NCBI GenBank assembly: GCA_046049675.1
Contig: JBJORA010000090.1
Location: 16,114-80,113, forward strand
DNA length: 64,000 nucleotides
Origin: Bacteroidota bacterium
Lineage (GTDB): Bacteria; Bacteroidota; Bacteroidia; Chitinophagales; Chitinophagaceae
Direction of reading: 5' to 3'
The notes beneath the pieces were generated by a model. The model had not been told where the DNA came from, did no database searches, and was given only the letters and a program-made list of their open reading frames with translations. Below are positions 30,145 through 31,453 of the stretch, one piece after another. The position numbers and the translations under genes are program-made. Numbering within the stretch: the stretch's first letter is position 1; each line of letters begins with the position of its first letter.

Positions 30145-31453
30145 TGTACTTTGTTCACTTGGTAAAAATACTATATCATTATCCGCAAAACTGTACGAAT
30201 CTCTGAGATTTTATGATTACGATATTCGTAGTCTTATTTTTGAACTAACAGCCCGCCCCTACGGAGCTGTGAATAATCTTTTGCTATCTAATCTACAAAC
30301 AGTACGCTCCTCTGGAGCTTAGGTTAGGCACAAATTAGTTATGTGTTTAGTGTGCCATTGTCAGCGCTCAACAGCACGCTAATGCGAAGCCCCGACCGAC
30401 CTAGAAATATGGAGCAGAAAATCAGTTCACAGCACTAGGAAGGGTTGGGCTTTGTGTCAGCAGGTGCAGCGCCCCCAATGCGAAGCCATTAATTGATGCA
30501 AAGCCTTGGCGCCTCAGTCCGCCGCGGCGTGGTGGCCTAGTGCGTGAGCTAGATTTTCGCGAACATATTTCTAAGTCTTGATTTTTTGTTTCTTTTGCAT
30601 CAAGGCAAAAGAAAAGAGACGCCATGCGCACACGCATGAGACTCACATCACAAAACCGATCCACGAACTACGTCGCTTTACAGATCATGATTAAATACGA
30701 AAATTTAGCTCAATGTGCGCATTGTATATGCGTAGTTAATATAAACCTAAATTTATTTTAAAGTTTTTTTCCGCACCAGTACTGCGTTTCCAGGCTTTTT
30801 TGAAATAATTTTTTAACTGCGCATATCGTATGCGTACATGCACCTACATCTTTGCAGTGTTCTTCACAACAGAACAATAGCTCTTTCACAGTTTAATAGT
30901 AGTACTTAAACAAGTATTTTAGAAAGTACTTAAAATAATTGCAGCAATGCAATGGCAAGGATAAAGTTCAAAGATCCCAGATGCGTGTTTCAACATAGCA
31001 CCATAGTATTAAGCAGCTTCTGCTCTAATATGCTGATCTCGCCCTTTTGAATTGTCTATAACGCAGAGGTTAGAGGTAGACAATCCTCTTGTGGCAACAC
31101 ATAGCTCAAATAGAGCACTGCTCCCGCTTGGTCCAGCATAAAGGCCGAGATTTAGGGTCTCTATTCACCAAAGCTGTGCATCTTGTAAAACTGCACCTTA
31201 AGTACTATTACTTCAATTCAGCGATAAACATGTTTATCATTTGGTTAGACGCCCGATGCCCTTCGCCGAGATAAAGCCTGCACGCATTCAGCCGCTGCTA
31301 CATTAGTATCTGATACTAGTACGGCAAAAGCCCAATACTTGCACGCTGCATCGCAGATGAGCATCCGCAGAAAAACTAAATCGAATTGTTGTAATAGTAT
31401 TTTGTACAACAACACAAACAACAAAACATAAAACAATTAAAACAACAATAAAG
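30145..31453. other. 1.3-kb non-coding, GC-richer, palindrome-rich region between the WYL regulator and the RNA-repair operon
   Basis: No credible ORF in any frame. Repeated short palindromes (CATGCG-CACA-CGCATG at ~30622; CAATG-TGCG-CATTG at ~30711; CGCATA-TCG-TATGCG at ~30821). Confidence 0.5.

What the first reader, a model, noticed from the sequence alone, without database searches (positions are those of the whole stretch)
30145..31453. 1.3-kb GC-richer, ORF-free, palindrome-rich region between the WYL regulator and the RNA-repair operon
The region is unusually long for an intergenic spacer in this compact genome and has no credible ORF. It contains several short perfect hairpins built on a recurring ATGCGCA/TGCGCAT/TATGCGTA theme (30622-30643, 30711-30735, 30819-30846). 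Separately, longer GC-rich stretches such as GGGCTTTGTGTCAGCAGGTGCAGCGCCCC are compatible with a structured RNA. The candidates are (a) WYL-regulator operators plus a long 5' leader, (b) a non-coding RNA that is a substrate, decoy or guide of the repair machinery, analogous to Y-RNA/YrlA near rsr-rtcBA loci, or (c) a decayed gene.
Basis: seen in the sequence. Interest (0 to 1): 0.6.

Follow-up and report, generated by a model that had tools for sequence, protein, structure and literature searches.

The report
Y-RNA-like leader, operators and a transposon-like insert
The 1.3-kb gap is three things side by side: a strain-specific transposon-like insertion, two binding sites for the neighbouring WYL regulator, and a conserved 590-base structured RNA leader carrying a tRNA mimic of the Y-RNA (YrlA) type, a kind already predicted next to Band-7 RNA-repair operons.

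Summary
In detail: 30145-31453 is ORF-free, locally GC-rich and holds palindromes. It is a composite of three parts.

1. 30172-30692 is a 521-bp foldback insertion flanked by a duplicated AAATAC. It is absent from a 94%-identical relative and from all 88 related loci. It contains the GC-rich stretch and the first palindrome, so these do not belong to the repair system.

2. 30716-30734 and 30818-30836 are two copies of TRCGCA-N7-TGCGYA. This motif is conserved upstream of the WYL gene in 79 of 88 loci. A Bacteroidetes-type -7 box lies 10 nt after the distal copy. They are probably WYL operators.

3. About 30860-31453 is a conserved structured leader of 16 helices with strong covariation. Its core at 31061-31128 is a circularly permuted tRNA mimic (T arm, closed acceptor hairpin, D arm). 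A model built without the window finds it as the only hit in 64 kb (E=8e-7). Relatives match Rfam YrlA below threshold. The window copy has lost the T-loop and D-loop signatures.

Band-7-associated tRNA-like and YrlA RNAs were predicted in 2016, so this is a variant of a known kind. Function is inferred.

The parts
29131..30144 (-). HTH-WYL-WCX transcription regulator (context; divergent from the repair operon)
   Evidence: Pfam WYL 8.5e-10 and WCX 3.1e-12. There are 6819 homologues at E<=1e-20, about 60% identical across Bacteroidota.
30166..30171 (.). Left copy of the duplicated target AAATAC. It overlaps the putative -7 box of the WYL promoter (minus strand TATTTTTA, 30163-30170).
   Evidence: L081 has a single AAATAC at this place. 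Close relatives have CAAATATA (reverse complement TATATTTG) 17-19 nt from operator 1. The promoter assignment is an inference.
30172..30692 (.). 521-bp non-coding foldback insertion (MITE-like). It contains the GC-rich segment, the AATGCGAAGCC direct repeat and the 30622-30639 hairpin.
   Evidence: It is absent from L081, which is 93-95% identical on both flanks. In 88 related loci operator 1 lies about 40-75 nt from the WYL start, against 572 nt here. The ends pair with each other (ATCATTATC/GATCATGAT), and fold z-scores are -5.3 and -6.1 on the two strands. No other copy occurs in the window or the related loci, and none in phages. One weak 59-nt match (80% identity) lies on a Persicobacter plasmid.
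30693..30698 (.). Right copy of the duplicated target AAATAC
   Evidence: read directly from the sequence.
30716..30734 (.). Operator 1, TGCGCATTGTATATGCGTA (TRCGCA-N7-TGCGYA), proximal to the WYL gene
30818..30836 (.). Operator 2, TGCGCATATCGTATGCGTA, 102 bp from operator 1 and overlapping the -33 region of the operon promoter
   Evidence: A -7-like box lies 10 nt downstream of the distal operator in 43 of 49 loci that have both.
30847..30854 (+). Bacteroidetes-type -7 box CATCTTTG (consensus TAnnTTTG). The predicted transcription start is near 30860.
   Evidence: It is conserved as CATMTTTGYA in the close relatives and in other operon types. The consensus comes from general knowledge of Bacteroidetes promoters. 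The start site is inferred.
30860..31453 (+). Structured 5' leader of the SPFH-Rnl-Hen1-Pnkp operon, about 590 nt
   Evidence: nhmmer aligns it to relatives (E=8e-15 to L001). RNAalifold gives 16 helices and 106 pairs, 52 of them with compensatory changes. 92.4% of cells are paired against 34-45% when partners are slid. The window keeps 15 of the 16 helices. No terminator-like site lies on the + strand after 30233.
30937..31031 (+). Three conserved 5' hairpins: 30937-30954, 30981-31004 and 31006-31031
   Evidence: Helices 2-4. Helix 4 has 7 covarying pairs.
31061..31128 (+). Circularly permuted tRNA mimic (YrlA-type module). Closing stem 31063-66/31118-21. 5-nt 'variable loop'. T stem 31072-76/31085-89 with an 8-nt loop UAGACAAU. 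Closed acceptor hairpin 31090-93/31098-101 with a GCAA loop. UA. D stem 31104-07/31113-16 with loop AAAUA.
   Evidence: CM R1 was built from 34 relatives without the window. In those relatives 96.5% of cells are paired and 17 of 20 pairs are compensatory. R1 gives a single hit in the 64-kb window: 31.2 bits, E=8e-7, with the next best hit at E about 1.
31147..31161 (+). Anticodon-stem-loop-like hairpin GAGAU-UUAGG-GUCUC (read as a 4-bp stem it has the 7-nt loop UUUAGGG)
   Evidence: Helix 10 shows compensatory changes. The homologous loops in relatives are listed.
31176..31196 (+). Hairpin GUGCA...UGCAC with the conserved loop CUUGUAAAA
   Evidence: Helix 11. The loop motif CTTTTCAAA/CTTGTAAAA is seen across genera.
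31202..31400 (+). 3' domain closed by an 18-bp long-range helix (31202-31219 with 31383-31400), with internal helices
   Evidence: Helices 12-16. Other genera have a helix of different sequence spanning about 190-225 nt. Inverted repeat I4 was reported.
31454..32548 (+). SPFH/Band-7 protein, the first gene of the repair operon (context). It is followed by an Rnl1-like ligase, Hen1, a Pnkp-ligase-domain protein, a kinase-phosphatase and RlaP.

Best explanation
The gap is a composite of three parts.

(1) Control region. This is the ancestral divergent control region of a WYL-regulated RNA-repair operon. Two 19-bp inverted repeats (TRCGCA-N7-TGCGYA, 102 bp apart) are the likely binding sites of the HTH-WYL-WCX protein. 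One lies over the -33 region of the operon promoter and the other next to the regulator's own promoter.

(2) Leader RNA. Transcription from about 30860 produces a 590-nt structured leader ahead of the Band-7 gene.
- Its first domain contains a circularly permuted tRNA mimic of the YrlA/Y-RNA type, followed by an anticodon-arm-like hairpin.
- A second domain of about 200 nt is closed by a long-range helix.
- By analogy with YrlA and the predicted Band-7-associated tRNA-like RNAs, the leader, or a piece processed from it, most likely acts with the Band-7 protein and the Rnl/Hen1/Pnkp1 enzymes. It could serve as a tRNA-shaped cofactor, scaffold or decoy.

(3) Insertion. In this strain a 521-bp foldback element inserted with a 6-bp target duplication between the WYL gene's -7 box and operator 1. 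This adds the GC-rich, hairpin-rich sequence and probably uncouples the regulator gene from its operator.

Shown here: the insertion, the conserved motif and its geometry, and the RNA secondary structure with its homology. Inferred: that WYL binds the motif, the transcription start, any processing, and the RNA's function.
For: Insertion:
- L081 aligns at 93-95% identity on both sides and lacks 30140-30692.
- AAATAC is present once in L081 and twice in the window.
- The operator-to-WYL distance is about 40-75 nt in most of the relatives and 572 nt here.

Operators:
- The pattern occurs 3 times in the window against 0 expected.
- It is present within 1 kb upstream of WYL in 79 of 88 loci, typically at about 42 and about 150 nt.
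- A -7-like box follows the distal site at a fixed 10 nt in 43 of 49 loci.

Leader RNA:
- nhmmer aligns it to relatives, and MAFFT shows conserved blocks.
- The module structure is supported by 96.5% paired cells against 38-49% for slid controls, with 17 of 20 pairs compensatory.
- The CM gives a unique window hit at E=8e-7.
- All 89 CM hits in the 88 loci are on the operon strand. They include 1-3 copies downstream of Ro60 genes, in the Y-RNA position.
- Rfam YrlA gives sub-threshold hits in relatives, at 32-42 bits and E=8e-6 to 5e-3.
- The whole-leader consensus structure has 52 compensatory pairs, and the window keeps 15 of 16 helices.

Literature: Band-7 proteins with tRNA-like RNAs or YrlA next to RNA ligases were predicted by Burroughs and Aravind 2016, as reported in bioRxiv 10.1101/312249.
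Against: - There are no expression data. The transcription start, any processing and the stability of the RNA are all inferred.
- The window's module scores lowest in its class, 31 bits against 60-85. It lacks the UUCGAAU T loop and the GG of the D loop that form the tRNA elbow.
- The window does not match Rfam YrlA even at E<=10.
- No Ro60 gene lies in the 64 kb, and no Ro60-binding helix was identified.
- WYL binding to the motif is untested. A third motif copy inside an ORF at 62341 shows the pattern can occur elsewhere.
- No second copy of the insertion was found, so its mobility rests on the duplication, the terminal inverted repeats and its absence from relatives.
- The whole-leader structure was derived from the same 7 sequences on which it was counted.
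Confidence: 0.72

Rival explanations
1. The conserved part is purely a cis-acting 5' UTR. Its structure controls transcription elongation, translation or stability of the operon mRNA, and no separate RNA product acts in trans. The tRNA shape would recruit a tRNA-binding factor in cis.
For: There is no terminator between the module and the SPFH start. The leader always lies directly upstream of the SPFH gene, in 41 loci. It is missing in L089, which lacks the SPFH gene but keeps the operators and promoter. Three partly overlapping complementary segments (near 30895, 31201 and 31393) allow alternative pairings in all close relatives.
Against: The same module occurs after Ro60 genes, in the position of free-standing Y RNAs. 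YrlA itself is co-transcribed within an operon yet acts as a separate RNA (PMC7790460). The two readings are not exclusive.
Confidence: 0.2
2. In this strain the system is decaying. The tRNA mimic is a relic that has lost its elbow, and the regulator gene has been cut off from its operator by the insertion.
For: The T loop is UAGACAAU and the D loop is AAAUA, in place of UUCGAAU and a GG-containing loop. Helix 9 is missing. The insertion sits at the edge of the regulator's putative -7 box. The sister contig L081 has a 16-nt deletion that removes the WYL start codon.
Against: 15 of 16 helices are intact, and the window-specific changes are compensatory (GCAG/CTGC, GAGA/UCUC). The same derived T loop is shared with L081, so it is stable in the lineage. 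All operon ORFs are intact.
Confidence: 0.2
3. The GC-rich segment 30200-30690 encodes a non-coding RNA that belongs to the repair system.
For: It folds far better than shuffled sequence on both strands, with z-scores of -5.3 and -6.1.
Against: It is absent from the 94%-identical relative and from all 88 related loci. It has no Rfam hit at E<=10 and no hit with CM R1. It is flanked by a target duplication and terminal inverted repeats.
Confidence: 0.03
4. The gap is the remnant of a decayed protein-coding gene.
For: None beyond its length.
Against: The longest ORF is 80 aa. No ORF has a significant Pfam hit. Conservation follows RNA helices with compensatory changes instead of a reading frame.
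Confidence: 0.02

Closest known systems
YrlA / bacterial Y RNA-like (Rfam RF02553; Chen et al. 2014, PMC4201824; structure in bioRxiv 10.1101/312249)
   Same: The order of elements is the same: T arm, acceptor stem closed by a loop, D arm, all closed by a stem made from the flanks. It is encoded inside an RNA-repair operon. Relatives of the window element hit RF02553 at E=8e-6 to 5e-3. The same CM finds copies next to Ro60 genes.
   Different: All scores are below the Rfam gathering threshold, and the window copy does not hit at all. No Ro60 gene lies nearby, and no Ro60-binding helix was recognised. The module is embedded in a 590-nt two-domain leader. The window copy lacks the conserved T-loop and D-loop nucleotides.
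[quoted passage not shown]
   Same: A tRNA-like RNA is encoded next to a Band-7/SPFH gene in an RNA-ligase operon. That source also states that YrlA is occasionally adjacent to the Band-7 protein.
   Different: b7a-tRNA is described as strongly resembling an authentic tRNA, and it lies next to RtcB. The window element is permuted (YrlA order), and its operon uses Rnl/Pnkp1/Hen1, not RtcB. I could not read the original paper, so identity with its lists is unchecked.
rsr-yrlBA-rtcBA operon regulated by RtcR (PMC7790460)
   Same: It is an RNA-repair operon with an embedded tRNA-mimic RNA, controlled by a ligand-sensing transcription factor encoded alongside.
   Different: Its regulator is a sigma-54 activator with a CARF domain that senses tRNA fragments. 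Here the regulator is an HTH-WYL-WCX protein with inverted-repeat sites at an ordinary Bacteroidetes promoter, and its ligand is unknown.
HTH-WYL-WCX regulators (BrxR/CapW, DriD, PafBC), from general knowledge
   Same: The domain architecture is the same. The arrangement, with inverted-repeat sites in the regulator's own upstream region controlling an adjacent stress or defence operon, also matches.
   Different: The target is an RNA-repair operon. Neither the binding site nor the ligand has been tested for this clade.
[quoted passage not shown]
   Same: The downstream genes 33523-37063 encode Hen1, a Pnkp-ligase-domain protein and a T4-Pnkp-like kinase-phosphatase.
   Different: The window operon adds a Band-7 protein, an Rnl1-like ligase and RlaP, plus the leader RNA and the WYL regulator. 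The passages of that paper I searched do not mention them.
Miniature inverted-repeat transposable elements (MITEs), from general knowledge
   Same: The 30172-30692 insert is small, non-coding, strongly self-folding, has short terminal inverted repeats and is flanked by a target duplication.
   Different: No second copy and no parent IS element were found, so the family is unknown.

Membership tests
YrlA / Y RNA-like (RF02553) | tRNA-like module in permuted order (T arm, closed acceptor stem, D arm, closing stem) | tested here: met
   The CM R1 hit at 31061-31128 has all four helices paired. The structure is supported by covariation in 34 relatives.
YrlA / Y RNA-like (RF02553) | Conserved T-loop (UUCGA) and D-loop (GG) nucleotides that build the tRNA elbow | tested here: not met
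   In the window the T loop is UAGACAAU and the D loop is AAAUA. The feature is met in the 34 relatives used to build the model and in most other SPFH-type relatives.
YrlA / Y RNA-like (RF02553) | Score at or above the Rfam gathering threshold (69 bits) | tested here: not met
   The window has no hit at E<=10. Relatives score 32-42 bits.
YrlA / Y RNA-like (RF02553) | Ro60/Rsr-binding helix and an rsr gene nearby | tested here: not met
   tblastn finds no Ro60 in the 64-kb window. Matches to the Rfam model outside its positions 23-86 are poor. The rest of the genome could not be searched.
Band-7-associated tRNA-like RNA (Burroughs and Aravind 2016) | tRNA-like RNA gene adjacent to a Band-7/SPFH gene in an RNA-ligase operon | tested here: met
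   The module lies 326 nt upstream of the SPFH gene, and RNA ligases follow. The same holds in 39 of 41 SPFH-first loci.
Band-7-associated tRNA-like RNA (Burroughs and Aravind 2016) | Strong resemblance to an authentic tRNA in the normal order of arms | tested here: not met
   ARAGORN finds no tRNA in the window, Rfam tRNA gives no hit, and the order of arms is permuted.
Operator of an HTH-WYL-WCX regulator | Inverted repeat conserved in the regulator's own upstream region across orthologues, positioned at promoters | tested here: met
Operator of an HTH-WYL-WCX regulator | Direct binding by the protein | not testable with these tools
   This needs EMSA or footprinting.
MITE / non-autonomous transposon | Presence/absence polymorphism with a target-site duplication and terminal inverted repeats | tested here: met
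MITE / non-autonomous transposon | Multiple copies in the genome, or a related autonomous element | tested here: inconclusive
   No copy was found in the 64-kb window, the 88 related loci or phages. The only plasmid match is a weak 59-nt one. The metagenome scan used an uninformative pattern. The host genome is not available.

The most novel reading that the evidence does not exclude
The leader could be a new class of large structured RNA of about 540 nt in two domains. In it a permuted tRNA body and a separate anticodon-stem-loop mimic would act as a built-in bait for anticodon nucleases. The mimic loops read as Leu (UAG, CAA, AAG, GAG) or Lys (UUU) anticodons in different genera. Cleavage of the bait, or of cellular tRNA, would generate the ligand sensed by the WYL domain. 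The operon would then be induced, and the Band-7/ligase machinery would use the tRNA-shaped RNA as a scaffold. That would be a WYL-based counterpart of RtcR sensing damaged tRNA.
Probability: 0.1. Interest if true: 0.85.

Novelty: new variant of a known kind. Interest (0 to 1): 0.5.

Why it matters
Bacterial Y-like RNAs and the predicted Band-7-associated tRNA-like RNAs have no established function. The existence of the Band-7-associated RNAs has not been validated experimentally.

This locus family appears in 41 SPFH-first, 22 RING-protein-first and 13 Ro60-first operons across Bacteroidota, all under one highly conserved WYL regulator with a recognisable operator. It offers three things:
- a defined promoter and operator;
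- a covariation-supported structure for the whole leader;
- natural variants, including this window's elbow-less module and its insertion-disrupted regulator promoter.

Together these make it testable what the tRNA mimic does and what signal a WYL domain senses in RNA repair.

For this window specifically, the most eye-catching features (GC-rich, hairpin-rich sequence) turn out to be an ordinary strain-specific insertion.

Tried and rejected
- Rfam at gathering threshold over the whole window, and at E<=10 over 30000-31600, found nothing relevant in the gap. The only window hit was a SAM riboswitch at 12187.
- ARAGORN found no tRNA or tmRNA in the window.
- The sigma-70 promoter scan gave no more sites than shuffled sequence. 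Bacteroidetes promoters are not covered by that scan.
- blastn and nhmmer of the insert found no other copy in the rest of the window or in the 80 genome loci fetched by then.
- In the plasmid collection the insert gave only a 59-nt, 80%-identity match to a Persicobacter plasmid. In phages it gave nothing.
- The one metagenome scan used AATGCGAAGCC-N75-100-AATGCGAAGCC. It returned 98 contigs of unrelated tandem repeats, none homologous to the insert. This was a poor choice of pattern and a dead end.
- Pfam on the four longest ORFs in the gap gave no significant hit.
- The Burroughs and Aravind 2016 paper could not be read.
- My first reading of the window's T arm, with the first AGAGG as stem and a 15-nt loop, was replaced by the CM alignment, which uses the second AGAGG and an 8-nt loop.
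- A strict switch model for the three complementary segments A, B and C was considered. It was left as a possibility only, because the segments are invariant and overlap by just 5 nt.

Full report
**What is there**

The gap 30145-31453 lies between a divergently transcribed HTH-WYL-WCX regulator (29131-30144, minus strand) and an operon. The operon encodes, in order:
- an SPFH/Band-7 protein;
- a T4-Rnl1-like ligase;
- Hen1;
- a Pnkp-ligase-domain protein;
- a kinase-phosphatase;
- RlaP.

The last enzymes correspond to the Pnkp1-Rnl-Hen1 repair system described from Capnocytophaga (PMC4411300).

The gap has no ORF above 80 aa, and no ORF has a significant Pfam hit. GC reaches 0.46-0.51 at 30200-30650. 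It has no Rfam or tRNA hit.

**Comparative material**

The WYL protein has thousands of homologues at about 60% identity across Bacteroidota. I fetched 80 genome loci anchored on it, plus 8 loci from metagenome or assembly contigs that carry the closest homologues.

The first gene of the divergent operon is as follows:

| First operon gene | Loci |
|---|---|
| SPFH | 41 |
| 746-aa Prok-RING_4 protein | 22 |
| Ro60/TROVE | 13 |
| RtcB | 4 |
| Rnl | 1 |
| No match | 7 |

In SPFH-first loci the gap is 687-1220 nt. A long spacer is therefore the rule for this kind of locus.

**Part 1: a strain-specific insertion**

nhmmer aligned window 30700-31060 to positions about 40-350 upstream of the WYL start in relatives. 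Contig L081 is 93-95% identical on both sides but lacks 30140-30692.

At the junction L081 reads ...GGTAAAAATAC|AACAAC..., while the window reads ...GGTAAAAATAC|TATATCATT...GATT AAATAC|GAAAAT.... This is a 521-bp insert (30172-30692) with a 6-bp target duplication.

Properties of the insert:
- Its ends pair (ATCATTATC/GATCATGAT), and it folds far better than shuffles on both strands (z = -5.3 and -6.1).
- No other copy was found in the window, the related loci, plasmids or phages.
- A metagenome scan with the internal repeat returned only unrelated tandem repeats.

I read it as a MITE-like element of unknown family.

It sits exactly between operator 1 and what in close relatives is a TATATTTG -7 box for the WYL gene. 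It therefore probably uncouples the regulator's promoter from its operator. That is an inference.

**Part 2: operators and promoter**

The two conserved palindromes are TGCGCATTGTATATGCGTA (30716-30734) and TGCGCATATCGTATGCGTA (30818-30836).
- The pattern TRCGCA-N7-TGCGYA occurs 3 times in 64 kb against 0.00 expected. The third copy lies inside an ORF at 62341.
- It is present within 1 kb upstream of the WYL gene in 79 of 88 loci. The usual arrangement is two copies, at about 42 and about 150 nt, spaced 100-112 bp.
- Ten nucleotides after the distal copy, 43 of 49 loci have nAnnTTTG. This fits the Bacteroidetes -7 consensus TAnnTTTG, which I take from general knowledge.
- In the window that box is CATCTTTG at 30847-30854, which predicts a start near 30860.

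The motif, geometry and promoter recur in all operon types, and also in L089, which lacks both the SPFH gene and the leader. These are therefore most likely the WYL operators. Binding itself is untested.

**Part 3: a structured leader with a Y-RNA-like tRNA mimic**

Relatives carry the T-loop motif GTTCGAATC on the operon strand in about 68 of 83 upstream regions, and almost never on the other strand. Reading the sequences showed a repeated order of elements:
- a closing stem;
- a 5-nt 'variable loop';
- a T arm;
- an acceptor stem closed by a loop;
- UA;
- a D arm;
- the return strand of the closing stem.

This is a tRNA that has been circularly permuted, which is the topology of YrlA (PMC4201824; bioRxiv 10.1101/312249).

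Evidence for this module:
- Rfam RF02553 (YrlA) hits it in relatives below threshold, at 32-42 bits against 69, with E=8e-6 to 5e-3.
- In an alignment of 34 modules without the window, 96.5% of cells pair against 38-49% for slid controls. 17 of 20 pairs show compensatory changes.
- The covariance model built from that alignment finds one hit in the whole window with filters off: 31061-31128 (+), 31.2 bits, E=8e-7. The next best hit is at E about 1.
- Across the 88 loci all 89 hits are on the operon strand. Ro60-first loci carry 1-3 copies downstream of the Ro60 gene, where Y RNAs are expected.

The window copy keeps all four helices, and its closing stem GCAG/CTGC is compensatory relative to the GUAU/AUAC of relatives. 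Its T loop is UAGACAAU and its D loop is AAAUA, so the nucleotides that form the tRNA elbow are gone. L081 shares this state.

**The rest of the leader**

RNAalifold on the seven closest leaders predicts 16 helices and 106 pairs, 52 of them with compensatory changes. 92.4% of cells pair, against 34-45% for slid controls. The structure was derived from the same sequences, which inflates the contrast somewhat. The window keeps 15 of the 16 helices.

The notable elements are:
- three 5' hairpins;
- the tRNA mimic;
- an anticodon-arm-like hairpin (31147-31161, loop UUUAGGG);
- a hairpin with a conserved CUUGUAAAA loop;
- a 200-nt 3' domain closed by an 18-bp helix (31202-31219 with 31383-31400).

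Other genera have an equivalent long-range helix of different sequence. No terminator-like site separates the leader from the SPFH start. The RNA is therefore probably made as part of the operon transcript, as YrlA is in Salmonella (PMC7790460).

**Comparison with what is known**

Wang et al. (bioRxiv 10.1101/312249) report predictions by Burroughs and Aravind (2016):
- a Band-7 protein with a tRNA-like 'b7a-tRNA' lies next to RtcB in some bacteria;
- YrlA is occasionally adjacent to the Band-7 protein;
- none of this has been validated experimentally.

The kind of association found here is therefore already in the literature.

As far as I could check, the following are not in the papers I could read:
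- the WYL operator and promoter geometry;
- the embedding of the mimic in a 590-nt two-domain leader;
- the association with an Rnl/Pnkp1/Hen1 operon without Ro60 or RtcB;
- the elbow-less variant in this window.

I could not read the 2016 paper itself.

**Mechanism**

The most likely mechanism has three steps:
1. The WYL protein controls both divergent promoters through the two operators. Operator 2 covers the -33 region of the operon promoter, which suggests repression relieved by a ligand. This step is inferred.
2. The operon transcript begins with the structured leader.
3. The leader's tRNA-shaped domain works with the Band-7 protein and the ligases as a cofactor, scaffold or decoy. This rests on analogy with the proposals for YrlA.

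Rival readings are a purely cis-acting leader, or a decaying system in this strain. They are listed with their tests in the rival explanations section.

**Verdict**

This is a new variant of a known, predicted kind, of moderate interest.

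Noticed in passing
L005, L007, L013, L014, L033, L047, L060 and other loci whose first operon gene is the 746-aa Prok-RING_4 protein; e.g. L007 upstream positions 245-540 (locus minus strand): The motif GGYCAA-N6-10-YTACY (typically GGTCAA-N7-TTACTTC) occurs 70 times on the operon strand and never on the other strand. At least 2 copies are present in 20 of 22 such leaders, and none in any other operon type. The variable 7-mer is often complementary to a nearby 7-mer next to ATTAYC. The same leaders hold tRNA-like genes in normal order, with a long insert replacing the anticodon arm (Rfam tRNA 47-52 bits).
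   Followed up: partly
L081 (reverse complement positions about 1285-1300), equivalent to window 30142-30157: The 94%-identical sister contig has a 16-nt deletion (GCCATTGTACTTTGTT) that removes the WYL start codon, so the called gene is 316 aa, not 337. Together with the window's insertion, the 5' end of the regulator gene is altered in both strains of this lineage.
   Followed up: partly
Anticodon-arm-like hairpins downstream of the tRNA mimic: window 31147-31161; L023, L052, L082, L085 and others: The 7-nt loops have U at position 2 and a purine at position 6. Most read as leucine anticodons (UUUAGGN, CUUAGGA, UUAAGGU, UUGAGGA, CUCAAAA). In Myroides and Empedobacter loci they read as CUUUUAA, the tRNA-Lys(UUU) loop.
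   Followed up: partly
L089 (locus 4711-5000): A close relative with Rnl directly after a 290-nt gap. It has no SPFH gene and no tRNA-like leader, yet both operators and the -7 box are kept. This suggests the leader goes with the SPFH gene.
   Followed up: partly
window 62341-62359: A third exact match to the operator pattern (TACGCATCGCCATTGCGCA) lies inside a 730-aa ORF on the minus strand (61785-63977).
   Followed up: no
window 12187-12295 (+): SAM riboswitch (RF00162), 77.9 bits, E=1.3e-16.
   Followed up: no
window 26911-28002 (+) and 38298-38693 (+): An HTH plus Peptidase_M78 (ImmA/IrrE-like) protein lies upstream of the WYL gene. A Gp49/DUF891 (HigB-like toxin) gene lies just after the repair operon.
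   Followed up: no
L085 (locus 4105-8825): In this relative the WYL gene is followed directly by an integrase, a relaxase and a TraG/T4SS coupling protein. The repair locus therefore borders an integrative conjugative element.
   Followed up: no
window 30895-30909, 31198-31210, 31392-31403: Three conserved segments (AATAGTAGTACTTAA, TTAAGTACTATTAC, GTAATAGTATTT) are present in all seven close leaders. The middle one can pair with either of the others, with a 5-nt overlap. This could mean two stacked domains or alternative pairings.
   Followed up: partly
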